A DNA stretch of 64,000 nt, from NCBI GenBank assembly GCA_963774065.1, contig CAVZDO010000002.1, positions 21,799 to 85,798 on the forward strand. Reading direction: 5' to 3'. The translations under genes and the position numbers were made by a program. Below are positions 6,331 through 62,297 of this stretch, one piece after another. Position 1 is the stretch's first letter. Each line of letters begins with the position of its first letter. Below the pieces are notes generated by a model. The model had not been told where the DNA came from, did no database searches, and saw nothing but the letters and a program-made list of their open reading frames with translations. Origin of the DNA: Chitinophagia bacterium (GTDB lineage: Bacteria; Bacteroidota; Bacteroidia; Chitinophagales; Chitinophagaceae).

Positions 6331-6340
6331 TAACTAACAC

Positions 6341-10087: not shown

Positions 10088-10114
10088 AGAGTGTCTTTTT
10101 GCTTATTCATAGAA

Positions 10115-10600: not shown

Positions 10601-10659
10601 ATTGAAACTTAATTGCCTACAATTAATAATGACTATTAAATAATGCAGAACAGTCACAT

Positions 10660-10785
10660 TTTCACATGATGTTTAAATATAAGCGTACAATAGTATTACT
10701 ACAGTCGAATTCACAGTAGCACAAAAGTTATATCAAGGAACGATCTCCAAAACGGGCTGTTTTCGTTTTGGAGTGTGTTTTTTGG
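10660..10785 (+). ncRNA. Candidate sRNA, copy 1 (5' end unknown)
   Basis: The hairpin CTCCAAAACG-ggctgtttt-CGTTTTGGAG (10745-10773) is followed by tgtgTTTTTT. Confidence 0.35.
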
Positions 10786-10869
10786 TTCTTTTTTTCACAG
10801 AAAAAAAAGAACAAAGAAAAATTATCTAATAATTAATATTGAAAATCTAAAATTGAACAGCCCTTACAT

Positions 10870-10995
10870 TTTCTCTTGATATTAAAATATAAGCGTACAA
10901 TAGAAATACAAAAGCTGAATTCACAGTACTACAAAAGTTCAATCAGGGAACAATCCCGAAAATGGGCTGTCTTCATTTTCGGGTGTGTTTTTTGG
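10870..10995 (+). ncRNA. Candidate sRNA, copy 2 (5' end unknown)
   Basis: The hairpin CCCGAAAATG-ggctgtctt-CATTTTCGGG (10955-10983) is followed by tgtgTTTTTT. Confidence 0.35.
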
Positions 10996-11079
10996 TTCTT
11001 TTTTTCACAGAAAAAAAAGAACAAAGAAAAATTATCTAATAATTAATATTGAAAATCTAAAATTGAACAGCCCTTACAT

Positions 11080-11205
11080 TTTCTCTTGATATTAAAATAT
11101 AAGCGTACAATAGAAATACAAAAGCTGAATTCACAGTACTACAAAAGTTCAATCAGGGAACAACCCCGAAAATGGGCTGTCTTCATTTTCGGGTGTGTTT
11201 TTTGG
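11080..11205 (+). ncRNA. Candidate sRNA, copy 3 (5' end unknown)
   Basis: Same hairpin as copy 2, at 11165-11193, followed by a U-tract. Confidence 0.35.
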
Positions 11206-11371
11206 TTCTTTTTTTCACAGAAAAAAAAGAACAAAGAAAAATAAATTGATAATTGTTCTTTAAAATTGTTTACGCGCTCGCCCCCTATTGCGTGAGATAT
11301 GTTTGTGTTGACATTGCCTCGTTTCCACTTCATACATTTTCTTTTTAGCTTAGCAAGAAATAAAAATTAAA

Positions 11372-11593
11372 ATGAAGATTAACCGAAAGCTGATCATTGG
11401 AATAGTATTATGTTTTATCGGACCTGTAATTTTACAAATCATATTTTTTTCTTCCCACATTGCTCAAGGCAGAAAAATACCACACAAAGCCATTCCACTT
11501 GAAATAACTGCTATTGCTATAGTTATCGCCGGCGCATATGTTATTTACCTGGGCAAAAAACAACAGAAAGAAGAAAGAGAAAACAATGACTAA
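11372..11593 (+). CDS. Small membrane protein (2 TM)
   Basis: Two hydrophobic helices and a charged KKQQKEERENND tail. A terminator lies downstream. Confidence 0.5.
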   Translation: MKINRKLIIGIVLCFIGPVILQIIFFSSHIAQGRKIPHKAIPLEITAIAIVIAGAYVIYLGKKQQKEERENND

Positions 11594-11708
11594 TTATTAT
11601 TCACCGCTAAAAATTTTATAATTACCGGTAAAAAACATCCGTAATTAAAATTGCTGCGTATATGCTCACGAATACTTTTATCAACAATTCGTCTTTGCGA
11701 AAATCATT

Positions 11709-11738
11709 GCCCTGCCATTTTACGGCGGGGCTTTTTTT
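11709..11738 (+). terminator. Intrinsic terminator
   Basis: The stem GCCCTGCC / GGCGGGGC is followed by TTTTTTT. Confidence 0.65.
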
Positions 11739-11744
11739 ATAAAT

Positions 11745-11773
11745 AAAAAAGGCGACAGTAGAAACTATCGCCT
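11745..11773 (-). terminator. Intrinsic terminator for ORF 11862..12107
   Basis: On the minus strand, AGGCGA-tagtttctactg-TCGCCT is followed by TTTTTT. Confidence 0.6.
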
Positions 11774-11861
11774 GCAGTATAAAACTTTTATACTGTTTAT
11801 GAATTAATAAAAATAATTAATGATTTAAGTTTTCAATGTTAAGTTTTGCACCGGAAAAAGC

Positions 11862-12107
11862 TTACCAATATTCCGTGAGCATCTTGTCTGTATATTCATG
11901 CGATAGCTTTTCTATTTCTTCTTTTTTGTCGGTAAACTTATACTCCAGTTGCTGCACCTCGTTAACCATTTTTGCAATGGCTTCTTTAAGCGTGGTAATG
12001 TAATCCGACTTACTGAAAGGTCTTACCTTGTCGGGATGAAAATAATTTTTTAAAGGATTTGCACAATCGTTGTAAATGTCCTGAAGCATTTGTTTTAAAT
12101 TATCCAT
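11862..12107 (-). CDS. Small helical hypothetical protein
   Basis: 81-aa ORF with ATG start, a charged helical composition and its own downstream terminator. Confidence 0.5.
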   Translation of the reverse strand: MDNLKQMLQDIYNDCANPLKNYFHPDKVRPFSKSDYITTLKEAIAKMVNEVQQLEYKFTDKKEEIEKLSHEYTDKMLTEYW

Positions 12108-12316
12108 AAGTCTTTTTTAAAGATTTAATTCAAAAAAAATTCAATCAGGTTAGTATTGGGCGGCAATGTAATAAAAATTTAAGAAATCGGCATATCACAC
12201 AAAAAACAAAAAATAATTTAAAATTTAAGGGAGTATTTCATTTTTTTGAAACCCTCCCGCTAAAATTTTCGTATCTAATTTATATTATAGTTTTAAAAAG
12301 CAATTAAGAAACCCCT

Positions 12317-12345
12317 GCCCTTCCATTCCTGGAAGGGCTTTTTTT
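12317..12345 (+). terminator. Orphan intrinsic terminator 1
   Basis: GCCCTTCC-attcct-GGAAGGGC followed by TTTTTTT. There is no upstream plus-strand ORF. Confidence 0.6.
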
Positions 12346-12431
12346 GTGGATAACAATTAATAACTATGGCGCTTATTGTGTTTAAATTTAGTTATCAATA
12401 GTCTTAGAAAGGTTTTTTAAATTAAAACATA

Positions 12432-12463
12432 AGCTCCTTTAGTCTTAGAGGAGCTTTTTATTT
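12432..12463 (+). terminator. Orphan intrinsic terminator 2
   Basis: AGCTCCT-ttagtcttag-AGGAGCT followed by TTTTaTTT. Confidence 0.6.
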
Positions 12464-12533
12464 ATCCACTAAACAAACTTTCTGAATAATAAACCCGTAT
12501 GTTTAAGCGGTTTTAAAAGGTTCTAAAAATCCA

Positions 12534-12566
12534 AACTCTCCTATTCTTAGGAGAGTTTTTCTTTTT
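12534..12566 (+). terminator. Orphan intrinsic terminator 3
   Basis: AACTCTCC-tattctta-GGAGAGTT followed by TTTcTTTTT. Confidence 0.6.
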
Positions 12567-12735
12567 AATTCTTCATAGCTCATGTAGTTTCCTCATTTGC
12601 GGAGAGCAGGATAAAATTTTATTGTACTATTTATTTATTCAAACGTATATTCTATTGGTTGTTTTTTAAGAACTCGCAAGAACCATTATCGAAGTTTTTA
12701 CGATCAATTCTCCAGGAGCAATCCTGATAATGGTA

Positions 12736-12768
12736 AGCCCTGTTATTTTTACCAGGGCTTTTATTTTT
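12736..12768 (+). terminator. Orphan intrinsic terminator 4
   Basis: AGCCCTG-ttatttttac-CAGGGCT followed by TTTaTTTTT. Confidence 0.6.
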
Positions 12769-12791
12769 AAGAAGAAAATATATTGCGTAAT

Positions 12792-12826
12792 AAAAAAACC
12801 CGCTAATAAATCAGCGGGTTTTTTAT
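12792..12826. terminator. Bidirectional terminator (A-run, stem, T-run)
   Basis: AAAAAAACCCGCT-aataaatc-AGCGGGTTTTTT. On the minus strand it serves the 12844..14130 gene. Confidence 0.7.
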
Positions 12827-16890: not shown

Positions 16891-17017
16891 GTATGAAGTA
16901 TAAACTATGAAGTATGAAGTAAGAATTTTAAAGGGAGAATTTAGAATAGAGAAGTAATCAAGCGATACCTCATAGCTCATAGCTAATAGCTTATAGCTCA
17001 TACTTCATACCTCATAC
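16891..17017. repeat. Intergenic word hairpin (TATGAAGTA words / CATAGCT words)
   Basis: Read directly from the sequence. It lies between the PRTase stop and the gyrA start. Confidence 0.8.
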
Positions 17018-18961: not shown

Positions 18962-19062
18962 CACGAATTATTGAGCACGAATTATCGGGTACGAATTACA
19001 CGAATTAAAGTGAATTAAGAAGCGGTTATACCTAACCGTTAGTATCTTTGAAGACTGAAGAT

Positions 19063-19184
19063 CAATTATCAATTATCAATTATCGATTATCAATTATCAA
19101 TTATCAATTATCAATTATCAATTATCAATTATCAATTATCAATTATCAATTATCAATTATCAATTATCAATTATCAATTATCAA
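19063..19184. repeat. Heptanucleotide microsatellite (CAATTAT)x17
   Basis: Near-perfect 7-nt period with one variant unit (cgattat). It ends 8 nt before the GH97 ATG. Confidence 0.95.
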
Positions 19185-19191
19185 CTTTCTT

Positions 19192-21171
19192 ATGAAACAT
19201 TTACTCAAACGATTTTGCATTGCCTGTTTTTTTCTTCCGTTATTTTTATCAGCGCAAAAAAATATTCGCCTTAGCTCGCCCGATGGCAGAATTGTTTTTT
19301 CTTTTTTTATTAAAAACAAATCTGCGTTTTACGAATTGACTTTTAAAAATAAACCTATCATCAATGCTTCTCCGCTAACTCTCGATTTTGACAACGGAAC
19401 ATTCGGCGATAATATTAAAATGAGCAAACCAATTTTTCGCGAAGCGGATGAAGATTATGAATTGGTTGTTGGCAAAGCAAAAAAAGTACATGATCATTTT
19501 AAAGAAGTAATCATTCCCTTGCAGGCGCTTTCATCATCACAAAGAAAAATTAATCTTGTCGTTCGCGCGTTCAACGACGGACTTGCATTTCGATATGCAA
19601 TTGCGCAACAGGGCGATTGGAATTCTTTTACATTATTAAATGAGAACACAACTTTCAAACTCGCCGGCAATCCCGTATCTCATTCATTAATGTTTGGAAA
19701 TTATACAAGTTCGCACGAAGGAGTTTACAATACCGTTCCATTTAAAGAAATTAAAGAAGATACATTGATGGATATGCCCGCGCTGTTTGAATTTCCGGAT
19801 AATATTTTTCTCGGCATTACCGAAGCGGAATTGGTGGATTATGCGGGAATGTATTTGGCAAGAAAAGGCGATGAACTCATCAGCAAACTTTCTCCATGGC
19901 CAAATCAAACTTCCATAAAAGTAAAAGCAAGTTTGCCGCATAACAGTCCGTGGCGCGTGTTGCTGATAAGCGATAGGATCGGCGCGTTGATAGAAAGCAA
20001 TATCATTACCGATTTGAATGAACCTTGCAAAATTGCAGATGTAAGTTGGCTGAAGCCCGGCAAAACAACTTTTCCGTGGTGGAATGGAAATGTAACGCCG
20101 GATACATTAAATGCGCCGGGAAATAATTTTGTAACCAATCAATATTATATTGATTTCTGTTCAAGAAATAATCTCGAATATCATTCTGTTGTTGAATATG
20201 GTTTGCATCAATGGTACACAGATGATGGCGTAGGTTTTCAACCAGGACCACATTCCGATGTTACTACACCTGTGCCGGGATTGGATATGAAAGAAATTTG
20301 CGACTATGCAAAAACAAAAAATGTAGGCATAAGAGTTTGGGTTCATTTCTATGCTTTGTATCCTAAGCTGGATACGGCTTTCGCGATTTTTGAAAAATGG
20401 GGATTGAAAGGAATGATGGTTGATTTTATGGATCGTGATGATCAGCAAATGGTGAATATGCAGAATGAAATTTTACAAAAAGCTGCTGCGCATCATTTAC
20501 ATATTCAATTTCACGGCGCATATAAACCAACAGGATTGAGCAGAACTTATCCGAATGAATTTACGCGCGAAGGAACATTAAATTATGAAGGAGATAAATG
20601 GACCGATGATGGAATTCCTCCGGATCACGATATCAATATGCCTTTTACCAGAATGCTTGCGGGCAGTACAGATTATCATCTCGGCGGATTTCGCGCTGTA
20701 CCGAAATCAAAATTCAAAGCGCAATACACACGTCCGTTGATGTTAGGTACTCGCTGTCATATGTTAGCTATGTATGTTGTGCTGGAAAATTATTTGCAAA
20801 TGGTTTGCGATTATCCGGCGGCCTATGAAGGCGAACCGGGATTTGAATTTATAAAAGAAATTCCAACAACATGGGATGAAACAAAAGTGCTTGATGAAAC
20901 AAAAGCTTTTCAATTTATAACTATAGCAAGAAGAAAAAATAATGACTGGTATGTTGGAACAATTACCGATCATTCTCCGCGGCAATTAAATATTCCATTA
21001 AATTTTTTGGGTGAAGGAAAATATACTGCAGAAATTTATACCGATGCGCCGGATGTAAATGAAAATCCCAACCATCTTGTCAAACAAACAAAAGAAGTGA
21101 CGAATAAAGATGCAATAACACTTAATGTTGCCGGTGGTGGTGGCGAAGTGATGAGGATAGTGAAAGAATAA
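19192..21171 (+). CDS. Glycoside hydrolase family 97 (alpha-glucosidase, SusB-like)
   Basis: The signal peptide is MKHLLKRFCIACFFLPLFLSAQ. The N-terminus SSPDGRIVFSF and its overall length resemble SusB-type GH97 enzymes. Confidence 0.85.
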   Translation: MKHLLKRFCIACFFLPLFLSAQKNIRLSSPDGRIVFSFFIKNKSAFYELTFKNKPIINASPLTLDFDNGTFGDNIKMSKPIFREADEDYELVVGKAKKVHDHFKEVIIPLQALSSSQRKINLVVRAFNDGLAFRYAIAQQGDWNSFTLLNENTTFKLAGNPVSHSLMFGNYTSSHEGVYNTVPFKEIKEDTLMDMPALFEFPDNIFLGITEAELVDYAGMYLARKGDELISKLSPWPNQTSIKVKASLPHNSPWRVLLISDRIGALIESNIITDLNEPCKIADVSWLKPGKTTFPWWNGNVTPDTLNAPGNNFVTNQYYIDFCSRNNLEYHSVVEYGLHQWYTDDGVGFQPGPHSDVTTPVPGLDMKEICDYAKTKNVGIRVWVHFYALYPKLDTAFAIFEKWGLKGMMVDFMDRDDQQMVNMQNEILQKAAAHHLHIQFHGAYKPTGLSRTYPNEFTREGTLNYEGDKWTDDGIPPDHDINMPFTRMLAGSTDYHLGGFRAVPKSKFKAQYTRPLMLGTRCHMLAMYVVLENYLQMVCDYPAAYEGEPGFEFIKEIPTTWDETKVLDETKAFQFITIARRKNNDWYVGTITDHSPRQLNIPLNFLGEGKYTAEIYTDAPDVNENPNHLVKQTKEVTNKDAITLNVAGGGGEVMRIVKE

Positions 21172-21217
21172 TTGATAATTAAAAAATCAAAACTGATGAA
21201 AGATGAATTTAGTTAGC

Positions 21218-21292
21218 GTTGAATAGACTTGTTGCAGTACAAGAGTGCGACGCAACGATGATGAAGAGGGTACTAATGCTGGTTACAAAAAA
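21218..21292 (-). repeat. 19-nt-core intergenic repeat, copy 1
   Basis: Core at 21237-21255 (reverse orientation). Flanking TCTATTnAnC and GCATT..GGTTACAAAAAA boxes are present. Confidence 0.9.
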
Positions 21293-21397
21293 TTGACAAT
21301 TGATAATGGAGAATTGATAATTAAGAGAGTAAGATTGAATATAAGAAATCGTATTTCGTAATTCGTATTTCGTAATTCCCAAATCGTAATTCTACAA

Positions 21398-22588: not shown

Positions 22589-22645
22589 AATTATTCCGGT
22601 CTTAGGTTTAAAAAAATCGCGAAAGCTAAAGTGTGAAAATAAGAC

Positions 22646-22722
22646 TTTTTATGTAGCGGGCATTTGATCTCTCTTCAACATCGTTGCGTCGCACTCTTGT
22701 ACAGCAACAATTCTATTGAGCG
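22646..22722 (+). repeat. 19-nt-core intergenic repeat, copy 2
   Basis: Core at 22684-22702. Confidence 0.9.
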
Positions 22723-22801
22723 TTCGTCAAACGTGAAACGTCAGACGTGAGGATGAAGTTCGTATTCACCTTTCACGTCTGACGTTTCACGATTCATGCT
22801 A

Positions 22802-27581: not shown

Positions 27582-27744
27582 TTTTATACCGTATTTTAAT
27601 TATACCCTGCTGGCGTTCCGCTCCGGCGGAATCTTTGTGAGCCTTGTGGGCAATAATGATTTCGTTCTTGCAACAAAATCATCCATAAAAATGGAGCGCA
27701 AAGGTAAATTATAAAAGTTAAAAAGAGTAATTAATTTTTGAGAG

Positions 27745-27821
27745 ATTATGTAGCCACCATTTGGAATTCTATTTAGCATTCTTGCGTCGCACTCTTGTAC
27801 AGTAACAAGTCTATTGAACGC
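27745..27821 (+). repeat. 19-nt-core intergenic repeat, copy 3
   Basis: Core at 27782-27800. Confidence 0.9.
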
Positions 27822-28144: not shown

Positions 28145-28206
28145 TTATAAAATATTATAACCCTCATTAAGAAAATATCGAAGAACACAAAGTTAGTCTA
28201 TATAAT

Positions 28207-28355
28207 TATGAAGTATAAGATATGAAGTATAAACTATGAGCTATGAACTATAACGTAAAATCGATTTCTAACTTCATATCTCATACTTCCTACTTCTACC
28301 TTCTATCTTCAACCTCATACCTCATACCTCATACCTCATACCTCATACCTCAAAC
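28207..28355. repeat. Intergenic word hairpin (TATGAAGTA words / CATACCT words)
   Basis: Read directly from the sequence. It includes (cctcata)x5. Confidence 0.8.
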
Positions 28356-35574: not shown

Positions 35575-35632
35575 TAATGTGGAAATATGAAAATGTGAAA
35601 AATGCAGTGAAACCTGAATTTGTAAGACTGAA

Positions 35633-35708
35633 GCTGAATAGAATTGTTGCAGTACAAGAGTGCGACGCAAGGATGATCAATAGAGAACAAATGCAGGGAA
35701 CAAAATAA
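35633..35708 (-). repeat. 19-nt-core intergenic repeat, copy 4
   Basis: Core at 35652-35670 (reverse orientation). Confidence 0.9.
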
Positions 35709-35802
35709 CAATGAATAATGAACAAAGAACAATGATGCTAACAGCAATGCATACCCGAAACTAAGAAATCGTACATCGTACATCTAAAATCGCTCATTGC
35801 TC

Positions 35803-37870: not shown

Positions 37871-37925
37871 GATTTATTTGATTCACCTGGAATAAATTCA
37901 GAAATTATTTTAAAGTTAATTGAAA

Positions 37926-38003
37926 TTTTGTACCAGGGCGATTGATCTACTATTAAACGGCCGTTGCGTCGCACTCTTGTACAGTTGGAATTCTATTGAG
38001 CGC
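37926..38003 (+). repeat. 19-nt-core intergenic repeat, copy 5
   Basis: Core at 37964-37982. Confidence 0.9.
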
Positions 38004-43007: not shown

Positions 43008-43147
43008 ATTCTTATTTACGATTTACGAATTATGATTTACGATTTATTTATTTTCGGTTATATGTTACTGTCAGCTGTTAGCTTTTAGCCATTAGCTGGC
43101 AGCTGTATTCATTTCCACATTTTCACATCTTCAAATTTTCAAATTCA

Positions 43148-44143: not shown

Positions 44144-44250
44144 TTTGCTAAAATTTGAGTGTGCAAAGATAAGGGTATGGATGGAAAGGCACAAGAAATA
44201 AGGTGTAAGGTTTAAGGTATAAGGTAACCGAACAATTTTTCTTAATCCTT

Positions 44251-44325
44251 ATTTATGTAACCGGCATTGGAATTCTATTAAGCATCGTTGCGTCGCACTC
44301 TTGTACGGCAACAATTCTATTCAGC
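44251..44325 (+). repeat. 19-nt-core intergenic repeat, copy 6
   Basis: Core at 44288-44306, in the divergent pdhA/recF spacer. Confidence 0.9.
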
Positions 44326-44386
44326 TTTAGGTTCAAATTCTAAAATTCAAACTAACTGTTATCTTGCGATAATTAAAATCTTCTTA

Positions 44387-45469: not shown

Positions 45470-45526
45470 TAGTTTTGAGTTTGGAGTTGCTTAAATTCTC
45501 AAATACCTTTGCATTTAATAGTTTTT

Positions 45527-45575
45527 CATACTTCATACTTCATACTTCATACTTCATACTTCACACTTCATACCT
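45527..45575. repeat. Tandem CATACTT word tract
   Basis: (catactt)x5 and variants, read directly from the sequence. Confidence 0.8.
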
Positions 45576-45580
45576 CTTCC

Positions 45581-46705
45581 TCACACTCTCAAAAAAACTT
45601 TCTTTTTATACATGAAATAAAGAAAAGCCCATTTTACAAAAACATACAAGCACGCCATTACCACAACGCTCCACGGATCACCAACTAACTGGCCAACCCA
45701 TTTAAAAAAACCATTAGTAGTATAATCCCAATCAATAAAATGACCAGACATATAAATGAGAATTGAATTCATTCCTATAACCCTGAAAAAAAACGCCCAT
45801 TTTTTATATCCGAGTACATCAATGATATAATAAAATATGGAAAGCAATATCAAACTCAATCCACCAACCTGGAGAACAAATGAACTTGTCCAAAGGTTTT
45901 TATTAATCGGAAAATCTAAATTCCAAAGTTGTGCGAGTGCAAGAAAAATTATTCCGCCAACAAATAACCGTATAACTTTCTGTGCTTGCTGCATCGGGTT
46001 ATTTTTCAAAAAAGTTCCGGTGATTATTCCGAGCAATCCTGTACCAATTGCAGGAATTGTTGAAACCAAACCTTCGGGATCATGAATACCTAAATACAGA
46101 TGACCCGGAATTACTGAACGATCTATATACGATGCGAAATTTCCTTGCATGGTTAAATCTCCGCGCGGAAAACCGGGCGCTGATGTAAATTTCAACATCA
46201 GCCAATAACCTATAAGCAATGCGCAAAACCAAATTATTTGCCCGATTTTATTTGTGTACAAAGCAATAATATTTGCAAACATATACGCAAGCCCGATGCG
46301 CCCAAGTACGCTGCCAAAGCGGATTTCAGAAAACGGGCGAAGATGCAATCCATTATTATAAATAATGCCTAATAAAACTAAAATCAATCCTCTTCTTATC
46401 ACACGCAATAATATTTTTTGTTTTGATGCGCCTTTCTCCAATTCTCTTCCTACAGAATATGGTGTGGCAACACCTGCAATAAAAAGAAAAAGCGGGAAGA
46501 TGAGATCGTAAAGATGAAATCCATTCCACGCAGGATGCGTTAATTGATTTGAAAAGCCCTGCCAAAAAGATGAGCCGGTTGTGTCGGCCATTCCGTGAAC
46601 AATTTCTTCAGCGCCCATTATCCAAAACATATCAAAGCCGCGAAGTGCGTCTAGAGAATATAAACGTTGCGATGGTAACGATGGTGCAGTTAAAGTTTGA
46701 GCCAT
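45581..46705 (-). CDS. Polytopic acyltransferase-like membrane protein (DUF5009 / HGSNAT-like)
   Basis: The N-terminus RLYSLDALRGFDMFWI and about 10 TM segments. The family assignment is from memory. Confidence 0.7.
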   Translation of the reverse strand: MAQTLTAPSLPSQRLYSLDALRGFDMFWIMGAEEIVHGMADTTGSSFWQGFSNQLTHPAWNGFHLYDLIFPLFLFIAGVATPYSVGRELEKGASKQKILLRVIRRGLILVLLGIIYNNGLHLRPFSEIRFGSVLGRIGLAYMFANIIALYTNKIGQIIWFCALLIGYWLMLKFTSAPGFPRGDLTMQGNFASYIDRSVIPGHLYLGIHDPEGLVSTIPAIGTGLLGIITGTFLKNNPMQQAQKVIRLFVGGIIFLALAQLWNLDFPINKNLWTSSFVLQVGGLSLILLSIFYYIIDVLGYKKWAFFFRVIGMNSILIYMSGHFIDWDYTTNGFFKWVGQLVGDPWSVVVMACLYVFVKWAFLYFMYKKKVFLRV

Positions 46706-48529: not shown

Positions 48530-50125
48530 TTATCTTATTCTATTGAACAAACGACTCCAGCGAATTCCGTGATCAACACTCATCCATATCAGTGAAGCGC
48601 TTCCCACAACATGATCTTCAGGAACAAATCCCCAGTAACGCGAGTCTTGTGAATCCTGGCGGTTATCGCCCATCATCCAGTAATAATCCATTTTAAAAGT
48701 GTACTGGTTTGTTTCTTTATCATTAATATAAAAATTGCCATTTTTAAATTCCAGTTTATTTTTTTCAAAGGTGCGTATAGCCCGTTCGTACATCGTATAA
48801 TTTTCCGGGGTGAGTGTTATTGTTGCGCCTTTTTTGGGAATCCAAACCGGTCCAAAATTATCGCGCGACCAATGATGAAGATTATCATAGGGCATAACTC
48901 CGCCGCCGCCGCCGTTATAACTATAATCCAACCGGATATTTTTTATAATTCCGGCCTTTATCATTTTTTCTTTGCCTGCAACTGTAAGCAGCATGGTAAA
49001 TTCATTTTGCCTGTTTGTTGCAGCGTAATCTCCTTTATCAATATCAAGATTGTATTGCTCTTTCATTACATCCGCATCTAATTGTTGTCCGTTGGTTGTT
49101 ACAACATAATGCAGTTCTGAGTTTGGTGGCTCGGTTTGCCGTTCTCCATTAATATAAACTACTTCATCTTTTATTTGTATCGAATCGCCGGACACACCAA
49201 CACATCGTTTGATATAATTTTCTTTTTTATCAACCGGTCTTATTACAATCGGATAATCATCGGGATCGCTTAATACAATTTTTCTTCCGGAATCAATATT
49301 TCCGGCTCCTGCATCGAGTCCTCCATTTCCAACTTCGTAACGGCATACCCAATAATAAGTTCTTTCGGATTGATAGCCGTCGCGATTTATAACTGTATCT
49401 CCATCCGGAAAATTAAAAACAACTACATCATTTCTTTTTACGGGTGATGGAAACCATCTTGTGTACGGAATTTTAATCCATTCTACATACGAGTCGGCGT
49501 TAGTAAATGGAATGGAATGATGAACGAAAGGCAAAGCTAATGGTGTGTTTGGAAGACGCGGACCATAACTGAATTTACTTACAAAAAGAAAATCATTAAC
49601 CAGTAAAGTTTTTTCCATTGAAGGAGTTGGAATAACATAGGCTTCAAAAACAAAAGTGCGGATAAGCACTGCCGCCACTACTGCAAAAACACCTGCATCA
49701 ATCCATTCGCGGGCGGTTGTTTTTTTATGTTTTCTTACAACTTCGGGGCCTAAGAATTTATCATCTTTATTATATCCGACATAAGGAAAATAAAACACGG
49801 GAAAAAGAGCGGAAAGTGCATGCTCATACAAGCGGAACTTACCAAAGGTTTTTACAAACTCAACAAAAATTCCCATAGAAATAAACCAGCCAGCAACAGG
49901 TATGAGTTGCCAAAAAACCCAATGCACCGGACGCTGCCCCAGCTTTTGCATTATCCAAGTATTATAAAACGGAACAAATGCTTTCCATGCGGGAACTCCG
50001 GCTTTTTCAAACATTTTTGCCAAACCAACAGCAGGTAATAATAGTATGATTATCTGGATGAGAATAAGAATAAAAACCTGGTGAGCAGTCATGAATGCAA
50101 TTTTAAAATTGGGCAAAAATACCAT
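48530..50125 (-). CDS. lepB: Signal peptidase I with N-terminal DUF5684-like membrane domain
   Basis: S26 motifs PTPSMEKTL and GDNRQDSQDSRYWGFV. The N-terminus carries KAGVPAWKAFVPFYN. An alternative start lies at 50092. Confidence 0.85.
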   Translation of the reverse strand: MVFLPNFKIAFMTAHQVFILILIQIIILLLPAVGLAKMFEKAGVPAWKAFVPFYNTWIMQKLGQRPVHWVFWQLIPVAGWFISMGIFVEFVKTFGKFRLYEHALSALFPVFYFPYVGYNKDDKFLGPEVVRKHKKTTAREWIDAGVFAVVAAVLIRTFVFEAYVIPTPSMEKTLLVNDFLFVSKFSYGPRLPNTPLALPFVHHSIPFTNADSYVEWIKIPYTRWFPSPVKRNDVVVFNFPDGDTVINRDGYQSERTYYWVCRYEVGNGGLDAGAGNIDSGRKIVLSDPDDYPIVIRPVDKKENYIKRCVGVSGDSIQIKDEVVYINGERQTEPPNSELHYVVTTNGQQLDADVMKEQYNLDIDKGDYAATNRQNEFTMLLTVAGKEKMIKAGIIKNIRLDYSYNGGGGGVMPYDNLHHWSRDNFGPVWIPKKGATITLTPENYTMYERAIRTFEKNKLEFKNGNFYINDKETNQYTFKMDYYWMMGDNRQDSQDSRYWGFVPEDHVVGSASLIWMSVDHGIRWSRLFNRIR

Positions 50126-50240
50126 GATAATTGATAATTGGCAATTGATAATTGATAATTCTATGTGAAGACTGATTTAGTTTATAGTTTTTAGTTTATA
50201 GTTTTTAGTTTGGAGGTTGATAGCCGAAAGTGAAACTGAA

Positions 50241-50316
50241 GTTGAATAGTGAGCTTACAGTACAAGAGTGCGACGCAAGAATGATGAAGACAGAACAAAT
50301 GTCGGTTACAAAAAAA
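50241..50316 (-). repeat. 19-nt-core intergenic repeat, copy 7
   Basis: Core at 50260-50278 (reverse orientation). Confidence 0.9.
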
Positions 50317-50343
50317 GCTATCAGCTATTAGCTAATGGCTAAT

Positions 50344-51507: not shown

Positions 51508-51553
51508 TATATTTTTTTGGCTGCTCACGAAAGTAAGAAATTATGGGAAAGAA

Positions 51554-51627
51554 ATATGACCCAAACATTTTTACTACTATTAAGCATCCTTGCGTCGCAC
51601 TCTTGTACAATTTGTTCTTTATTCAGC
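51554..51627 (+). repeat. 19-nt-core intergenic repeat, copy 8
   Basis: Core at 51590-51608. Confidence 0.9.
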
Positions 51628-51755
51628 AACCGCAGAACAGTGTTTCCATGCATCATGAAATACGATGCAAACTGGTAATTGTTCTTAGTAGTTTTTCCTT
51701 GCTTTAAAAAATACTGTAGAGTAATTTAGCATATCCAATATTTAAAAATAAAACC

Positions 51756-53317: not shown

Positions 53318-53599
53318 ATGGGAGAATATTCATTGGCAGAAGCAGTAAAACAATTTTTGAACCAGAGTAAACTCAAAGGTTCGATGCAGGCTTTCCAGGT
53401 TGAAGATGCCTGGGAAAAAATAATGGGAAAAACAATTGCGCGATATACAGAAAAAATCGAGATCCGCGGAAACACGCTCTACATAAGCACTTCAGTTGCT
53501 CCGCTCAAAGAGGAATTATTATATCAAAAAGAAAAAATTATTGAACGCGTGAATGAAGCATTGGGAGAAAAAGTGGTGAAGGAAGTGGTGATAAAATAA
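53318..53599 (+). CDS. DUF721 (DciA-like) protein
   Basis: 93 aa with the pattern W..I.G..IA..T....I....L.I......L..EL. Confidence 0.75.
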   Translation: MGEYSLAEAVKQFLNQSKLKGSMQAFQVEDAWEKIMGKTIARYTEKIEIRGNTLYISTSVAPLKEELLYQKEKIIERVNEALGEKVVKEVVIK

Positions 53600-53762
53600 T
53601 TGAGAATTGATAATTGAGAATTGATAATTGAGAATTGATAATGGATAATTGAGAATTGATAATTAGAAAGTCTTTAATTTCTGTTTTCTTTTCTAACTTC
53701 TCACTTCAGTCTTCTAACTTCTGTCTTCCGACTTCTGACCTCCAACTTCGGACATCCGACTT
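53600..53762. repeat. Intergenic word tracts (TTGAGAATTGATAA words, then TTCTAACTTCTG words)
   Basis: Read directly from the sequence. Confidence 0.8.
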
Positions 53763-53764
53763 CC

Positions 53765-54895
53765 TCACTGCACCGGCAAAGCATTAATTTCTTCCAGGGA
53801 GTTTTCAAAATCGCCGGAACCCCATTTGTTTAAAATACTTGCATCCTTCAACAAATACATTGTTGGGTTTACTCTTGCAGCAGTTTTAATTGCAGTTGCA
53901 TCGCACTTGAAAAAAGATATTTTATTCTGAAGATTATTCTTTTCCAGGTAATTTTTTGCATCTACGTCATTAGCTGTAATGATAAATACAGGAATATTTT
54001 TTGTTTGCGCCAGCGAAAGAACAACGCTGAATTCTTTATTCCATGATGGATCTGATTCAGGAATTTCTTTTGCAAAAAGAAAAATTTTATATCCCTTTAA
54101 TTCCAAAATTGCTAAGGTTGTATCGTTTCCGGATTCTGTAAATAAATTAAAATCTTTTATTTCTGATTCGGCATTTCCTTTTCTTATTAATTTATCATAT
54201 CGCTTTATGAATTTGTATGAATCATTAAAATCCGTCGGAAATTTATCTGCAGTAAATTCAATTTGCTTGCCATCTTTTTCGTAAATAAAAGAAATTACAG
54301 AACTGTCCGGAACTGCGCCCGGCGGCGGTTTCATCTTATCAATAATATTATTTCCGATTTTATACGGAAGACAATCTATTACCGGCAACTGGTGTAAAAC
54401 ATACCACTGAATTGAAAAAGAAAAAACAGTTACGAGCAGAAGCACTGTGATATTAATAAGCGGCGAAAGAAAAGTTTTTATTTTATTTTGGTTAATGAAT
54501 AAAAAAAGAATCAGCACAAGCAACACCAAATCTTTTGCAAATGACTCTCCTGCGGTTAACGGAATGCAATTACCAAAACATCCGCATTCATGTATCTTGC
54601 CCGATAAAAAAGCATAGCCGGTAAGAAAACTAAAAAAAATTATCAACAATAATAATAACCAACTGAAAAGTTTCATGCGCCAGCCGAGTAAAATGGCAAC
54701 GCCGGCCACAATTTCAAAAACGATCATAACGATCGAAAAAAATAAAGTGTAATTATCAAGCAAATGAAAATGCCAGACATCAAAAAACTCTTCCATTTTA
54801 TAACTTAGTCCGAGCGGATCGTTTGCTTTTATCAATCCTGAAAAAATAAAAAGAATCCCAACTATAATTCTGCTGATGTTTATTAAATATTTCAT
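53765..54895 (-). CDS. DoxX/MauE-like membrane domain fused to thioredoxin-like C-domain
   Basis: The N-terminus RIIVGILFIFSGLIKANDP, the HECGCFG motif and a C-terminal soluble domain. Confidence 0.7.
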   Translation of the reverse strand: MKYLINISRIIVGILFIFSGLIKANDPLGLSYKMEEFFDVWHFHLLDNYTLFFSIVMIVFEIVAGVAILLGWRMKLFSWLLLLLIIFFSFLTGYAFLSGKIHECGCFGNCIPLTAGESFAKDLVLLVLILFLFINQNKIKTFLSPLINITVLLLVTVFSFSIQWYVLHQLPVIDCLPYKIGNNIIDKMKPPPGAVPDSSVISFIYEKDGKQIEFTADKFPTDFNDSYKFIKRYDKLIRKGNAESEIKDFNLFTESGNDTTLAILELKGYKIFLFAKEIPESDPSWNKEFSVVLSLAQTKNIPVFIITANDVDAKNYLEKNNLQNKISFFKCDATAIKTAARVNPTMYLLKDASILNKWGSGDFENSLEEINALPVQ

Positions 54896-55049
54896 GAAAT
54901 AATTTTCAGTTTTAAGTTTTGAGTTTTCAGTTTACGGTTTTCAGTTTACAGTTATGAGAAAGTAAGTTTGTCTACAAAATTTAATCTGTTGTAATTAATG
55001 ATACATTTGGAAGCAAAGAACTTGTAAACTACAAACTATAAACTCAAAA
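54896..55049. repeat. Intergenic word hairpin (GTTTTCAGTTT words / AAACTACAAAC words)
   Basis: Read directly from the sequence. Confidence 0.8.
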
Positions 55050-59268: not shown

Positions 59269-59305
59269 TACAGCAGGAAACATTTAGTAAAGGATGTTAC
59301 ACAAG

Positions 59306-59381
59306 GCTGAATAGAGAACGAAAAGTACAAGAGTGCGACGCAAGAATGTTAAATAGATATTCTATCGCTGGTTACATAAAA
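59306..59381 (-). repeat. 19-nt-core intergenic repeat, copy 9
   Basis: Core at 59325-59343 (reverse orientation). Confidence 0.9.
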
Positions 59382-59411
59382 TAAAAAACATTCGGCTACA
59401 TTTTGTTGCAC

Positions 59412-60287: not shown

Positions 60288-60368
60288 GATATGAAATTAT
60301 GAGTTATGAATTATGAGTTATGAATTATGAGTTTTCAAAAACGTTCACAATTCATCATTCATAATTTA
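60288..60368. repeat. Intergenic word hairpin (TTATGAGTTATGAA / TTCATCATTCATAA)
   Basis: Read directly from the sequence. Confidence 0.8.
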
Positions 60369-62297
60369 TCATTCATCATTAACTGTTGCTTCTTTTCCGT
60401 AAAGCTGATCTTTAAATTTTAATGATGGAGATGAAATAAATACGCCAATATTTAATTGATTCCATTTTTCATCCACGCGTTTGATCGTTTCATCATCTGC
60501 AACAATTATATTAGGCCATTCACGCTGAAAGTTATCAAACTCTTTTGTTTTTCTTGTTCCGTCAAAACCTATGCAGGCAAACCGTTGACCGTCGACTGTC
60601 GAGAGTTGACAGAGAACATTATCTCTTTTCGGATCGAGGTTATTACAAAAACGCCATAACGCAACGGGAAGATCGTTGGCATCAACGGTATGTTCTACGT
60701 ATAATATCATTTTTATTTTTTCAATTTGAGTCGTGGATTGGCAAATTTGCTGATGCAATTCTTTGATGTGCCCGACACGATTTTTTTTCACAGAAATTAT
60801 CAAACACGGAATTTCATTTTTTAATAAATCAATATTCACTTCCTTGATTTCTGAAAATGCGTTTTTTAAAATCTCACGAATTTTTATATCGTACATCTTA
60901 CTTCGTACATCGTACATCTCATCAATTTCTTCCTCAAATTTTTTAGTTCCGTCAATGCACATTTTACCACCGAAACCTAATTTGCTGCAGCTATGATCGA
61001 GAACATCCATAGGTCCTTGTGAAAAATAAATATCCGTTGCGGGATTGAGGTTTTGAAAAACATATTTAGCTAATCGCAGGTAGTCAGTTATTTTAACCTG
61101 CTCATCAGTAATCACTAAAATTTTATTGAACATCATTTGTCCGGCGCCCCACATTGCGTTCATTACTTTTTGCGCCTGCCCTGCATAATCTTTATGAATT
61201 TGTGTTATCACTAAATTATGAAACACGCCTTCTACCGGCATTTCCATATCAATAATTTCAGGAACTAAAGTCATTTTTATAGGTGCAAGAAAAATCCTTT
61301 CTGTAGCCTTGCCAAGCCACGCATCTTCTTGCGGCGGAATACCAACAATAGTTGCGGGATAAACAGGATTTTTTTTGTGCGTGATGCAGGTGATATGAAA
61401 ACGCGGATACCAATCCGGCAATGAATAATAACCTGTGTGATCGCCAAATGGACCTTCCCAAATCAATTCATCATTTGGATCAACATAACCTTCAATAATA
61501 AAATCTGCATCAGCTGGAACTTCAATTTCCGGTTGCGTAATGCATTTCACCAACTCCACTTTTTGTTTTCGCAAAAAACCAGCGAGCATGTATTCATCAA
61601 CATTTTCGGGCAATGGCGCAGTTGCACAATACGCATATACCGGATCTCCGCCGAGCGCAACAGCAACCGGCATTCTCTTATTTAATTTTTTGTATTCAGA
61701 AAAATGTTTCGCGCTCACTTTGTGTTTGTGCCAATGCATTCCGGTTAAGGTTGCGCCAAATATCTGCATACGATACATGCCAACATTTCTAATTCCGCTG
61801 TTGGGATCTTTGGTATGAATTATAGGTAATGTTACAAACGGTCCGCCATCTTTTGGCCAACAGGTAATGACCGGTAATTTTGTAATGTCGGGGTTTGATA
61901 AAATTATTTCCTGGCATTCGCCTTTGCCGTTTTTTACTTTCGGCATCCAGCCTGCAAACTGGCTGAGCTTAGGCAGCAATTTTAATTTGTCAATTATTCC
62001 TTCTTTCGGTGCGGATAATAACTTGAACAGATCTTCAATTTCTTTGGCAACATCATTTAATTGTTTTACGCCAAGCGCGAGGCACATTCGTTTTTCACTT
62101 CCGTAGGCATTCATCAAGACCGGAAAATCGAAACCTGTATTTTCAAATAGTAACGCTTTATTTTGATTGGATGATTTGCTTATTCTGTCTGTGATCTCTG
62201 CAATTTCCAAATGAGGATCAACATAAGATTTGATGCGCAACAATTCTTTTTCATTTTCTAATCTGCTGATAAATTCCTGGAGATTGCGATAGGCCAT
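60369..62297 (-). CDS. UbiD-family decarboxylase (menaquinone/ubiquinone biosynthesis type)
   Basis: The N-terminus NLQEFISRLENEKELLRI and the segments GPFGDHTGYY and WGAGQMMF. Confidence 0.9.
   Translation of the reverse strand: MAYRNLQEFISRLENEKELLRIKSYVDPHLEIAEITDRISKSSNQNKALLFENTGFDFPVLMNAYGSEKRMCLALGVKQLNDVAKEIEDLFKLLSAPKEGIIDKLKLLPKLSQFAGWMPKVKNGKGECQEIILSNPDITKLPVITCWPKDGGPFVTLPIIHTKDPNSGIRNVGMYRMQIFGATLTGMHWHKHKVSAKHFSEYKKLNKRMPVAVALGGDPVYAYCATAPLPENVDEYMLAGFLRKQKVELVKCITQPEIEVPADADFIIEGYVDPNDELIWEGPFGDHTGYYSLPDWYPRFHITCITHKKNPVYPATIVGIPPQEDAWLGKATERIFLAPIKMTLVPEIIDMEMPVEGVFHNLVITQIHKDYAGQAQKVMNAMWGAGQMMFNKILVITDEQVKITDYLRLAKYVFQNLNPATDIYFSQGPMDVLDHSCSKLGFGGKMCIDGTKKFEEEIDEMYDVRSKMYDIKIREILKNAFSEIKEVNIDLLKNEIPCLIISVKKNRVGHIKELHQQICQSTTQIEKIKMILYVEHTVDANDLPVALWRFCNNLDPKRDNVLCQLSTVDGQRFACIGFDGTRKTKEFDNFQREWPNIIVADDETIKRVDEKWNQLNIGVFISSPSLKFKDQLYGKEATVNDE

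What the first reader, a model, noticed from the sequence alone, without database searches (positions are those of the whole stretch)
44251..44325. Roughly 75-bp intergenic repeat family with an invariant 19-nt core, nine copies in 64 kb
TTGCGTCGCACTCTTGTAC is identical in all nine copies. Core coordinates are 21237, 22684, 27782, 35652, 37964, 44288, 50260, 51590 and 59325. The flanks are only loosely conserved: TTTTaTGTAACCnGCATT, then TCTATTnAGCAT, the core, nGCAACAA, then TCTATTnAGC. All copies are strictly intergenic. The core contains the near-palindrome TGCG-T-CGCA and is flanked by direct TCTATT boxes. I do not see a convincing hairpin, terminal inverted repeats or target-site duplications. 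In 7 of 9 copies the element lies 57-288 nt downstream of a stop codon, oriented so that the mRNA-sense strand reads GTACAAGAGTGCGACGCAA. An invariant core with drifting flanks suggests recognition by a sequence-specific protein or RNA, rather than simple MITE decay. I do not recognise it as a named element.
Basis: seen in the sequence. Interest (0 to 1): 0.7.

Follow-up and report, generated by a model that had tools for sequence, protein, structure and literature searches.

The report
REP-like intergenic repeat, invariant core
The window carries nine copies of an ~80-bp intergenic DNA repeat, found only in Chitinophagaceae bacteria and their phages, whose 19-base core stays identical while the rest varies; it looks like a small mobile REP/MITE-type element whose recognising protein is still unknown.

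Summary
TTGCGTCGCACTCTTGTAC occurs nine times exactly in the window, and there are no near-misses. All copies are intergenic. The flanks are only 55-64% alike.

The same core is exact in at least 63 species-representative Chitinophagaceae genomes and in temperate phage contigs. It was absent from 907 kb of other Bacteroidota loci and from one close relative.

The unit is about 80 bp: T-run, GCCnGGC, a CTATTnAGC box, the core (really TTGCGTCGCAC-N-CTTGTAC), then a second box. I found no RNA fold, covariation, open reading frame, standard promoter, Rfam hit, terminal inverted repeat or target-site duplication.

- **Polarity:** the T-run end faces the nearest gene boundary, whichever way that gene points.
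- **Pairs:** close pairs are always convergent.
- **Turnover:** occupancy differs between related genomes. One phage pair shows a clean filled versus empty site. Decayed, disrupted and arm-only copies also exist.
- **Hairpins:** about 5% of copies expand the core's small palindrome into a real hairpin.

My best reading is a REP/REPIN-like non-autonomous DNA element that inserts 3' of oligo-T tracts and is recognised through its core by an unidentified trans-acting enzyme. The local RayT transposases have different cognate repeats. I rate it a new variant of a known kind, of moderate interest.

The parts
21217..21295 (-). Copy 1 (core 21237-21255). It lies between the converging ends of GH97 (+) and lgt (-). 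The T-run faces the lgt stop.
   Evidence: An orthologous copy with an identical core and diverged arms is in L123. The copy is absent in L119, L120, L122 and L124.
22644..22722 (+). Copy 2 (core 22684-22702). It lies between the lgt start and the stop of the PF06491 disulphide-isomerase gene, and is followed by a long hairpin at about 22725-22795.
   Evidence: The orthologous copy in L123 is split at the palindrome centre by a ~52-nt hairpin insert. L122, L124 and L119 carry a copy in the opposite orientation in this intergenic region.
27742..27820 (+). Copy 3 (core 27782-27800). It lies between the L35/L20 operon start and a small hypothetical gene.
   Evidence: There is an orthologous copy in L122/L249 with the same orientation and a 19/19 core. 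L120 has none.
35632..35710 (-). Copy 4 (core 35652-35670). It lies between the converging ends of the saccharopine dehydrogenase-like gene (+) and the 445-aa gene (-).
   Evidence: L249 has a copy here with quite different arms. L250 keeps this copy's left arm (29/30 nt by my count) but lacks the core and right arm.
37924..38002 (+). Copy 5 (core 37964-37982). It lies between the SIR2 start and the EVE-domain gene stop.
   Evidence: L249 is empty at this site. L250 has only a left-arm-like remnant.
44248..44326 (+). Copy 6, the reported one (core 44288-44306). It lies in the divergent region between E1 dehydrogenase (-) and recF (+).
   Evidence: It is absent from the same intergenic region in L249 and L251.
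50240..50318 (-). Copy 7 (core 50260-50278). It lies between the stop of the NtrC-type sigma-54 activator gene and the signal peptidase start.
51550..51628 (+). Copy 8 (core 51590-51608). It lies between the NtrC-type gene start and the alpha-L-fucosidase stop.
59305..59383 (-). Copy 9 (core 59325-59343). It lies between the converging ends of ndk (+) and the TraB/GumN-family gene (-).

Best explanation
This is a lineage-specific, non-autonomous interspersed DNA repeat of the REP/BIME/REPIN-MITE kind. It acts, and is recognised, as DNA.

**Anatomy.** The unit is about 60-80 bp:
- a short GC palindrome, GCCnGGC;
- a variable stretch ending in a CTATTnAGC box;
- the core TTGCGTCGCAC-N-CTTGTAC, whose 5' half is the mini-palindrome TGCG-n-CGCA;
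- usually a second box.

**Proposed mechanism (inferred).**
- The unit is copied into new sites immediately 3' of an oligo-T tract, without target duplication.
- Such tracts are terminator tails, or the complement of the A-rich leader in front of a start codon.
- That is why its T-run end abuts gene boundaries and why two units in one spacer face each other.
- The core is the binding and processing site of a trans-acting, sequence-specific enzyme.
- Insertion 3' of a short motif without TIR or TSD points to a single-strand HUH-type transposase; an RNA-templated route is not excluded.
- Only units with an intact core propagate, and dead copies are lost quickly.
- Living genomes therefore show 'invariant core, free arms'.

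**Shown:** the anatomy, distribution, polarity, pair geometry, turnover and the filled/empty site.
**Inferred:** the insertion rule, and the existence and type of the enzyme.
For: - **Copy number and position.** Nine copies in 64 kb. 166 of 170 cores lie outside called ORFs, although 80% of bases are coding.
- **Distribution.** It is absent from 907 kb of loci around NtrC homologues from other bacteria. It is also absent from ~36 kb of a close relative syntenic with the window.
- **Turnover.** The window and relatives at 83-90% nucleotide identity share some copies, lack others, and hold copies in the opposite orientation or with unrelated arms at the same spacer.
- **Filled versus empty site.** In co-linear phages, between the integrase stop and the terL start, L160 has 'TAAaaataaATG' and L159 has a 65-nt insert carrying the unit. 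L157 has the same copy with two core changes.
- **Phage copies.** Real temperate phages (terminase, portal, integrase) carry copies in both orientations relative to their genes, 7 versus 8.
- **Polarity.** The T-run end is nearer the flanking gene in 104 of 135 single copies (p = 2e-10). T-run length varies from 3 to 11.
- **Pair geometry.** Close pairs are 15 convergent, 0 divergent, 0 tandem (p ~1e-9), in every gene context. Nine of the 15 mix core variants. This matches published REP dimers: inverted dimers dominate, head-to-tail dimers are absent, and heterodimers are common (PMC3733652).
- **Hairpin expansion.** It occurs exactly at the palindrome centre in ~12 of 250 copies and in L123. 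The second dialect keeps the palindrome through a paired change, C4-G8 to T4-A8.
- **Missing features.** No TSD, no TIR, no adjacent conserved gene.
- **RNA and coding readings fail.**
Against: - No enzyme has been identified.
- The three RayT genes I could inspect (L016, L252, L253) are flanked by a different inverted repeat, CGAGTCYYGC-type, not by this element.
- The canonical unit has no stable hairpin (mean z about 0). HUH enzymes of the IS200/REP type normally need one.
- There is no strand bias relative to the uniform GC skew of the window: 5 plus and 4 minus copies. IS200/IS605-type insertion would predict a bias.
- Two orthologous copies keep 19/19 core identity although their arms have diverged by roughly 16-37%. 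This fits host-level selection on each copy at least as well as turnover does.
- Several 'empty' alleles retain the T-run plus GnnCCnGGC part (L250 twice, L160, L154). The true ends of the mobile unit are therefore not settled.
- Single copies outnumber pairs by about 8 to 1.
Confidence: 0.5

Rival explanations
1. It is a host cis-acting DNA site. The 19-bp core, with its helically phased boxes and A/T tract, would be the docking platform of a conserved Chitinophagaceae chromosomal protein. Candidates are a nucleoid-associated or insulator-like protein, a topoisomerase or a roadblock, as proposed for E. coli BIMEs. Host selection would maintain each copy. Copies would spread by recombination, and temperate phages would borrow them.
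For: - The core is 19/19 in orthologous copies whose arms have diverged.
- The same core is kept across many genera.
- It is indifferent to the direction of transcription in hosts and phages.
- It holds two short odd-centred palindromes about 32 bp apart and two direct boxes about 43 bp apart, roughly three and four helical turns.
- Copies sit at the borders of transcription units.
Against: - Transcription-factor or nucleoid-protein sites are normally degenerate, not 18 of 19 positions fixed.
- A close relative has none in ~36 kb, and decayed or disrupted copies are tolerated, so single copies are dispensable.
- Arms are replaced wholesale at the same spacer.
- Insertion/deletion polymorphism occurs in phages.
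Confidence: 0.2
2. It is an RNA-level element. When transcribed, the core would be a linear recognition sequence for an RNA-binding protein, RNase or small RNA in 3' or 5' untranslated regions. Alternatively, each copy would be a tiny transcription unit with a fixed 5' leader.
For: - In the window, 7 of 9 copies lie 56-287 nt after a stop codon in one sense.
- 19 fixed bases is the scale of base-pairing recognition.
- In phages the unit fills gene-to-gene spacers and must be transcribed through.
Against: - There is no consistent orientation relative to genes across genomes (52 versus 32 in tandem contexts; 7 versus 8 in phages).
- There is no fold, no covariation and no Rfam family.
- There is no Bacteroidetes -33/-7 promoter at a fixed offset.
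- Hairpin expansions and the pair geometry are symmetric, DNA-like features.
Confidence: 0.1
3. It is an uptake- or 'self'-signal-like sequence kept uniform by molecular drive, as with Neisseria DUS and Pasteurellaceae USS. A DNA import, packaging or recombination machine would prefer DNA carrying the exact core, so perfect copies would accumulate and be restored by recombination.
For: - A fixed core with loosely kept A/T-rich flanks.
- 'Dialects' of the core.
- Both orientations, inverted pairs around hairpins, and family-wide conservation.
Against: - It is strictly intergenic (166 of 170), whereas DUS/USS are frequent inside genes.
- The unit is far longer than any known uptake sequence.
- Density is about 1 per 7 kb, several-fold lower.
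- Different dialects coexist in one genome and even in one pair.
- To my knowledge, competence is not documented for this family.
Confidence: 0.05
4. It is the cognate REP of the Bacteroidetes RayT (TnpA-REP subclass 2.6), whose REPs are described as atypical and weakly structured.
For: - RayT homologues are common in Chitinophagaceae.
- One lies ~500 bp from an element copy in L016.
- Subclass 2.6 REPs lack GTAG and have weak structure (PMC6006769).
Against: - All three RayT genes examined are flanked by inverted CGAGTCYYGC-type repeats instead.
- That repeat is absent from the window and from 250 other loci.
- L252 has no element copy in 10.9 kb, and L253 has one 1.6 kb away from the RayT gene.
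- The published subclass 2.6 REP table holds neither half of the core.
Confidence: 0.05

Closest known systems
REP / BIME / REPIN elements (GTAG- and CGTC-tagged palindromic repeats; Di Nocera et al. 2013, PMC3733652; Bertels and Rainey 2011)
   Same: - High-copy, short, strictly extragenic and lineage-specific.
- Single copies plus inverted dimers, with head-to-tail dimers absent and heterodimers common.
- No TIR or TSD.
- Variable occupancy between relatives.
- A CGTC tetranucleotide, TGTC in the second dialect, as in the CGTC super-family. That super-family also lacks a dedicated transposase.
   Different: - The canonical unit has no 8-13-bp stem, only a 4-bp palindrome with a 1-nt centre.
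- The conserved part is a 19-nt mostly non-palindromic block inside an ~80-bp mosaic.
- It does not flank the RayT genes.
- The core is identical across genera, which is unusual for REPs.
Bacteroidetes RayT (TnpA-REP subclass 2.6 / RAYT group 5) with 'atypical' REPs (Quentin et al. 2018, PMC6006769)
   Same: - Same phylum.
- Its REPs lack GTAG and have weak secondary structure.
- RayT genes are present in element-bearing genomes (L016).
   Different: The RayT genes inspected carry another cognate repeat (GGCGAGTCYCCGC inverted pairs). No sequence similarity to the core is visible.
Bacterial MITEs such as Neisseria Correia/NEMIS, ERIC/IRU, RUP and the P. gingivalis MITEs
   Same: - Small non-coding intergenic mobile repeats.
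- They supply stop codons and other signals at gene borders.
- They are also found in prophages.
- Filled/empty polymorphism.
   Different: No terminal inverted repeats or target duplication in the single unit, and no parent IS recognised.
IS200/IS605-derived elements (PATEs) and their insertion rule
   Same: - Insertion 3' of a short specific motif.
- No TIR and no TSD.
- Small palindromes near both ends.
   Different: - The palindromes are too short to fold.
- No strand bias relative to GC skew in the window.
- No TnpA found next to any copy.
DNA uptake sequences (DUS/USS)
   Same: - Fixed core with loose A/T-rich flanks.
- Dialects of the core.
- Both orientations, with inverted pairs at terminators.
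   Different: It is strictly intergenic, much longer and rarer, and no link to competence is known.

Membership tests
REP / REPIN (RAYT-mobilised) | Each unit is an imperfect palindrome that folds into a stable hairpin (stem 5-13 bp). | tested here: not met
   Folding of -40..+40 in 163 copies gives mean z 0.07 (+) and -0.57 (-). Only TGCG-n-CGCA is palindromic. About 5% of copies have an expanded hairpin there.
REP / REPIN (RAYT-mobilised) | A conserved unpaired tetranucleotide (GTAG or CGTC) at the foot of the hairpin. | tested here: inconclusive
   CGTC lies inside the core (TTG-CGTC-GCAC) and is TGTC in the second dialect, as in CGTC REP variants. However, it spans the palindrome centre rather than its foot.
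REP / REPIN (RAYT-mobilised) | Inverted dimers predominate and head-to-tail dimers are absent. | tested here: met
   15 convergent, 0 divergent and 0 tandem pairs within 250 bp, in all gene contexts.
REP / REPIN (RAYT-mobilised) | A single-copy RayT gene is flanked by the cognate repeat. | tested here: not met
   The RayT genes in L016, L252 and L253 are flanked by CGAGTCYYGC-type inverted repeats. No whole genome could be searched.
MITE | Terminal inverted repeats. | tested here: not met
   The alignment and logo show no inverted termini in the single unit. Only convergent pairs have inverted ends.
MITE | Target-site duplication. | tested here: not met
   The longest shared word between left flank and right side is no better than in permuted controls. 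The two boxes differ at the variable position in 7 of 9 window copies.
MITE | A parent IS with a matching transposase. | not testable with these tools
   No recurrent neighbouring ORF family in 118 loci. ISfinder was not available, and whole genomes could not be scanned.
Structured non-coding RNA / Rfam family | A match to a curated model, or a conserved structure with covariation. | tested here: not met
   No Rfam hit at gathering threshold in 64 kb. Only chance-level hits at E up to 10. There is no long-range mutual information.
Bacteroidetes sigma-A promoter | TTTG at -33 and TAnnTTTG at -7, with 19-21 bp spacing, at a fixed place. | tested here: not met
   No positional enrichment of TAnnTTTG on either strand apart from a GTACnnTTTG by-product.
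Small protein-coding gene | A frame that is open in nearly all copies. | tested here: not met
   The best frame is open in 66 of 163 copies.
DNA uptake sequence (DUS/USS) | Over-represented in coding as well as non-coding DNA, and tied to competence. | tested here: not met
   166 of 170 cores lie outside ORFs although 80% of bases are in ORFs. Competence was not testable.

The most novel reading that the evidence does not exclude
The 19-bp core is the address tag of a still-undescribed Chitinophagaceae-specific DNA-handling system that works on chromosome and temperate phages alike. One possibility is a transposition or retro-insertion mechanism that places a ~60-bp unit 3' of oligo-T tracts with no hairpin, TIR or TSD. 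That would be either a new enzyme class or an RNA-templated, SINE-like route using the A-run end. The other possibility is a 'self'/uptake-type signal maintained by drive. In either case a 19-nt recognition, possibly by base pairing, is conserved across genera.
Probability: 0.18. Interest if true: 0.8.

Novelty: new variant of a known kind. Interest (0 to 1): 0.55.

Why it matters
- **A gap in what is known.** Small interspersed repeats are well studied in Proteobacteria. They are almost unexplored in Bacteroidota, where the known RayT-associated repeats look different.
- **An implied partner.** This element is fixed to the base over 18 of 19 positions across dozens of genera, has no stable hairpin and no linked transposase, and carries a strict polarity towards gene boundaries. 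It implies a very specific recognition partner that has not been described.
- **Possible pay-offs.** Finding that partner could reveal a new mobilisation mechanism or a new chromosomal organiser.
- **Practical uses.** The core is a ready-made taxonomic marker for Chitinophagaceae DNA and for their phages in metagenomes. It is also a likely cause of assembly breaks and of mis-called ORF ends.

Tried and rejected
- **Structured RNA.** Rfam at gathering and at permissive thresholds found nothing. Folding z-scores and mutual information were negative.
- **Small ORF or leader peptide.** No frame is open in most copies.
- **Promoter or terminator.** The sigma-70-type scan and a Bacteroidetes -33/-7 scan were negative.
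- **Gene cassette with terminal repeats.** Three inverted pairs flank genes in the window, but those genes are housekeeping: lgt, SIR2 and an NtrC-type gene.
- **Boxes as target duplications.** Rejected, because they differ within copies and no TSD signal exists.
- **Left arm as an independent motif.** It is too weak to detect with a profile or a regular expression.
- **Cognate RayT.** Rejected on three loci.
- **attP of the phage integrase.** Unlikely, because the integrase-proximal copy is decayed in L157 and absent in L160.
- **Partner gene near copies.** No recurrent ORF family was found, and the window genes hold no transposase.
- **Metagenome scan with the NtrC-like gene.** It gave only non-syntenic loci without the element.
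- **Exact-protein look-ups for near-identical strains.** They gave nothing useful.
- **Literature.** The sequence string found nothing relevant, and topic searches found no description of the element.
- **Similarity to the Correia element.** I noted it from memory only and treat it as chance.

Full report
**1. Observation**

The 19-mer TTGCGTCGCACTCTTGTAC occurs nine times exactly in the window, at the coordinates given, on strands -,+,+,-,+,+,-,+,-. No extra site appears when up to three mismatches are allowed. The chance expectation is 0.01. An nhmmer profile built from 163 copies from other genomes finds the same nine sites and no decayed copy.

None of the 19 core columns varies, against 35 of 44 neighbouring flank columns (Fisher p = 1e-9). 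Pairwise identity of the arms is 0.55 and 0.64, against 0.26 for random sequence.

All copies lie between genes, and those genes are ordinary housekeeping genes:
- GH97, lgt, a PF06491 disulphide isomerase, and L35/L20;
- a saccharopine dehydrogenase-like gene, SIR2, an EVE-domain gene, and E1 dehydrogenase;
- recF, an NtrC-type activator, signal peptidase, fucosidase, ndk and a TraB/GumN-family gene.

**2. Where else it occurs**

They come from 63 assemblies, all Chitinophagaceae or Chitinophagales. Genera include Segetibacter, Ferruginibacter, Flavisolibacter, Foetidibacter, Limnovirga, Lacibacter, Pinibacter, Flavihumibacter, Puia and Niabella.

The window itself is Puia-like. Its lgt is 88% identical to that of Puia MAGs.

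The core, with position 12 left free, is also in 32 stretches of IMG/VR viral contigs. At least one lineage is a genuine temperate phage with integrase, large terminase and portal.

It was absent from several other sets:
- 907 kb of metagenomic loci around homologues of the NtrC-type gene;
- ~36 kb of a related genome that is syntenic with the window;
- the plasmid and cultured-phage collections;
- Rfam;
- the searchable literature, as a sequence string.

**3. Anatomy**

An anchored logo of 163 copies gives these parts:
- a T-run of variable length, 3-11 bases;
- G-nn-CC-n-GGC;
- about ten free positions;
- the box CTATTnAGC;
- three or four semi-conserved bases;
- the core;
- a short T-rich stretch;
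- a second box, TTCTATTCAGC.

Searching the fetched loci with mismatches removes the ascertainment bias and shows what is really fixed. I counted 170 exact cores, 30 with one change, 10 with two and 8 with three. Most single changes are T to A at position 12. The motif is therefore TTGCGTCGCAC-N-CTTGTAC.

A second dialect, TTGTGTCACTCACTTGTAC, has about 25 copies. It differs at four positions. Two of these (C4 to T, G8 to A) are a paired change that keeps the small palindrome (TGCG-T-CGCA becomes GTG-T-CAC).

Rarer variants replace the last bases (…CTTCGGGG, …CTTCAAGG) or read TTGCGTCGCAATCCTTTCATCG.

About 12 of 250 copies carry a longer, GC-rich hairpin inserted exactly at the palindrome centre. 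Examples are in L043, L045, L053, L064, L010, L097, L099, L018 and L113.

**4. What it is not**

- The unit does not fold. Mean z is 0.07 and -0.57 for the two strands.
- There is no long-range covariation. All high mutual information is between neighbouring columns and reflects 1-2-nt register shifts.
- No reading frame is open in more than 40% of copies.
- Neither a sigma-70-type scan nor a search for the Bacteroidetes TTTG / TAnnTTTG promoter at a fixed offset gave anything.
- There are no terminal inverted repeats in the single unit.
- There is no target duplication beyond permuted controls.
- The two boxes are not a duplication. Their variable position differs within 7 of the 9 window copies.
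- No protein family recurs next to the copies, and the window holds no transposase.

**5. Polarity and pairs**

Orientation relative to transcription is weak and inconsistent.
- In other genomes, tandem gene contexts give 52 co-directional and 32 opposite copies. There are also 37 copies in convergent spacers and 18 in divergent spacers.
- In phages the split is 7 versus 8.
- The window's '7 of 9' pattern goes the other way.

What is consistent is polarity towards gene boundaries. In 104 of 135 single copies the T-run end is nearer to the flanking gene than the other end. Medians are 53 and 123 nt (p = 2e-10). This holds whether the boundary is a stop or a start.

Where a co-directional gene precedes the element, a normal terminator hairpin often sits just before the T-run. 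Examples are L010, L085, L107, L112 and L122. Where a divergent gene follows, the T-run is the complement of the A-rich leader before its ATG, as in phage terL.

Two copies within 250 bp are always convergent, with T-runs outward: 15, 0 and 0 (p ~1e-9). This holds in tandem, convergent and divergent gene contexts.

Their spacers are 24-186 bp and often hold a hairpin. Nine of the 15 pairs have non-identical cores.

At distances above 1 kb the divergent arrangement, with copies flanking a gene and T-runs inward, is enriched: 37, 18 and 31 (p = 5e-4). The three such pairs in the window, around lgt, the 445-aa gene plus SIR2, and the NtrC-type gene, are instances of this.

**6. Turnover**

Syntenic loci from relatives show every state.

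*Shared copies.*
- Copy 1 is shared with L123, whose lgt is 90% identical. The core is 19/19. By my count the right arm has 6 differences in 37, and the left arm about 11 plus two indels in 37.
- Copy 1 is absent in four other relatives.
- Copy 3 is shared with L122, again 19/19, with arms differing by roughly 27-37%.

*Disrupted, decayed or replaced copies.*
- Copy 2 is shared with L123, but there it is split by a ~52-nt hairpin insert between TTGC and CACTCTTGTAC.
- L122, L124 and L119 hold a copy in the opposite orientation in that spacer. L124's core has two changes.
- Copy 4 is matched in L249 by a copy with unrelated arms.

*Arm-only alleles.*
- L250 keeps copy 4's left arm almost unchanged (29/30) but lacks the core and right arm.
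- Similar alleles with only 'T-run + GnnCCnGGC' occur at copy 5's site in L250, downstream of terL in phage L160, and in phage L154 compared with L151.

*The cleanest case.* This is the integrase-terL spacer of co-linear phages:
- L160 reads TAA-aaataa-ATG.
- L159 has 65 nt there, containing GAGCCGGAGG…core…GGTTGGA on the opposite strand.
- L157 has the same copy with two core changes.

Downstream of terL, L157 and L159 both have a copy. The copies sit at different offsets and have different arms, so they look like separate insertions.

**7. Interpretation**

The features fit the world of REP/BIME/REPIN and MITE-like repeats:
- high copy number and a strictly extragenic position;
- restriction to one lineage;
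- gain, loss and replacement between relatives;
- presence in prophage-type phages;
- no gene of its own;
- inverted dimers with heterodimers.

Di Nocera et al. describe the same dimer rules: inverted dimers dominate, head-to-tail dimers are negligible, and heterodimers are frequent. They also describe a CGTC-tagged super-family, with TGTC variants, that lacks a dedicated transposase and occurs in Bacteroidetes (PMC3733652).

The polarity data suggest a simple rule. The unit sits immediately 3' of an oligo-T tract and points away from the neighbouring gene. This explains several things at once:
- the variable T-run length;
- the convergent pairs;
- the gene-flanking divergent pairs;
- the phage filled/empty site, where the empty allele already has TTATTTTT on that strand.

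Insertion next to a short motif without TIR or TSD is what single-strand HUH transposases do. An RNA-templated route primed on the T tract is the other formal possibility. I could not discriminate between them.

The hairpin expansions and the compensated palindrome say that the TGCG-n-CGCA centre is structurally relevant. This fits recognition in a single-stranded or extruded state.

The 'invariant core, free arms' pattern would follow if only intact cores propagate and dead copies are deleted fast. However, the 19/19 identity in two orthologous pairs with diverged arms also allows host-level selection. I therefore keep a cis-acting protein-binding site as the main rival.

**8. The RayT test**

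Quentin et al. report that Bacteroidetes RayT genes (subclass 2.6) are flanked by atypical, weakly structured REPs (PMC6006769). Their table has nothing like the core.

A motif search of all fetched loci found one RayT, with NHLH…WQ…YIHNNP, in L016, about 500 bp from an element copy. Its own flanks are inverted GGCGAGTCYCCGC pairs. These occur nowhere else in my data.

Two homologues from Ferruginibacter and another Chitinophagaceae MAG are likewise flanked by CGAGTCYYGC-type pairs, not by this element. The element is therefore not the cognate REP of that RayT. Cross-mobilisation cannot be excluded.

**9. Verdict**

The feature is real and highly non-random. It is not an artefact, and as far as my searches reach it is not described.

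I file it as a new variant of a known kind: REP/MITE-type interspersed repeats. It differs from typical REPs in four ways:
- the core is fixed to the base across many genera;
- the canonical unit has no stable hairpin;
- its polarity follows gene boundaries;
- no linked enzyme is known.

The mechanism is inferred, not shown. My confidence is about 0.5 for 'mobile DNA repeat recognised through the core by a trans-acting enzyme'. It is about 0.2 for a host DNA-binding platform, and less for the RNA, uptake-signal or RayT-cognate readings.

Noticed in passing
window 1107-1178, 16965-17016, 19061-19184, 21349-21392, 28200-28352, 43014-43046, 45525-45587, 50125-50211, 53596-53769, 54903-54953, 60290-60380: The intergenic spacers hold about two dozen tandem arrays with period 7 (or 14/21), each with its own unit, for example ATCAATT x17.7, GTATGAA x10 and TCATACC x11. 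Neighbouring arrays are often complementary and would form long AT-rich hairpins. Relatives show the same habit (AGAAGTT arrays at the lgt 3' end in L122 and L123). The array at 19061-19184 creates a false N-terminal 'QLSIINY' extension of ORF 19048..21171.
   Followed up: partly
window 3800-12800 (arrays at 9099-9316 and 10656-11242): A low-GC stretch (0.31 at 4-8 kb) has ORFs without Pfam matches, a 42-bp x5.2 array and a 210-bp x2.8 array. No copy of the element occurs anywhere in window 1-21000, although nine lie in 21-60 kb.
   Followed up: no
L016 1915-2960: This is a RayT gene (2302-2892; NHLH, WQ, YIHNNP) whose 5' end and upstream region are triplicated in tandem (~130-bp units). It is flanked by inverted GGCGAGTCYCCGC pairs. 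RayT homologues in the protein collection sit mostly on very short contigs, as expected if repeats around them break assemblies.
   Followed up: partly
L123 116-243 (orthologue of window 22644-22722): An element copy is split at the centre of its palindrome by a ~52-nt low-complexity hairpin (TTCATTTCTTTTTCTTTCA…). About 5% of copies elsewhere carry GC-rich hairpins at the same point. This suggests that short palindromes in these genomes seed hairpin growth.
   Followed up: partly
L157 / L159 / L160 (phage contigs), integrase-terL region: In this temperate phage lineage the integrase gene lies directly upstream of the large terminase gene. Gene content changes right after terL: an 84-aa gene in L157 and a Dam-like methylase in L160. 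Element copies therefore sit at module junctions. Synteny upstream of lgt also breaks near a copy in L119.
   Followed up: no
L017 3358, L049 5212, L067 7070, L103 1313, L109 6647: The variant TTGCGTCGCAATCCTTTCATCG recurs in five genomes. On the opposite strand it reads ATGAAAGGATTGCGACGCAAC…, a possible 9-codon micro-ORF (MKGLRRNDV in L017).
   Followed up: no
L250 (two sites), L160 about 2890-2920, L154 about 4720-4770: These alleles keep only the T-run plus GnnCCnGGC part of the element. In L154 two such ends face each other (GGGACCGGTA…TACCCGGCCCC). This looks like a pair from which both cores were deleted, comparable to the 'double-foot' REPs in the literature.
   Followed up: partly
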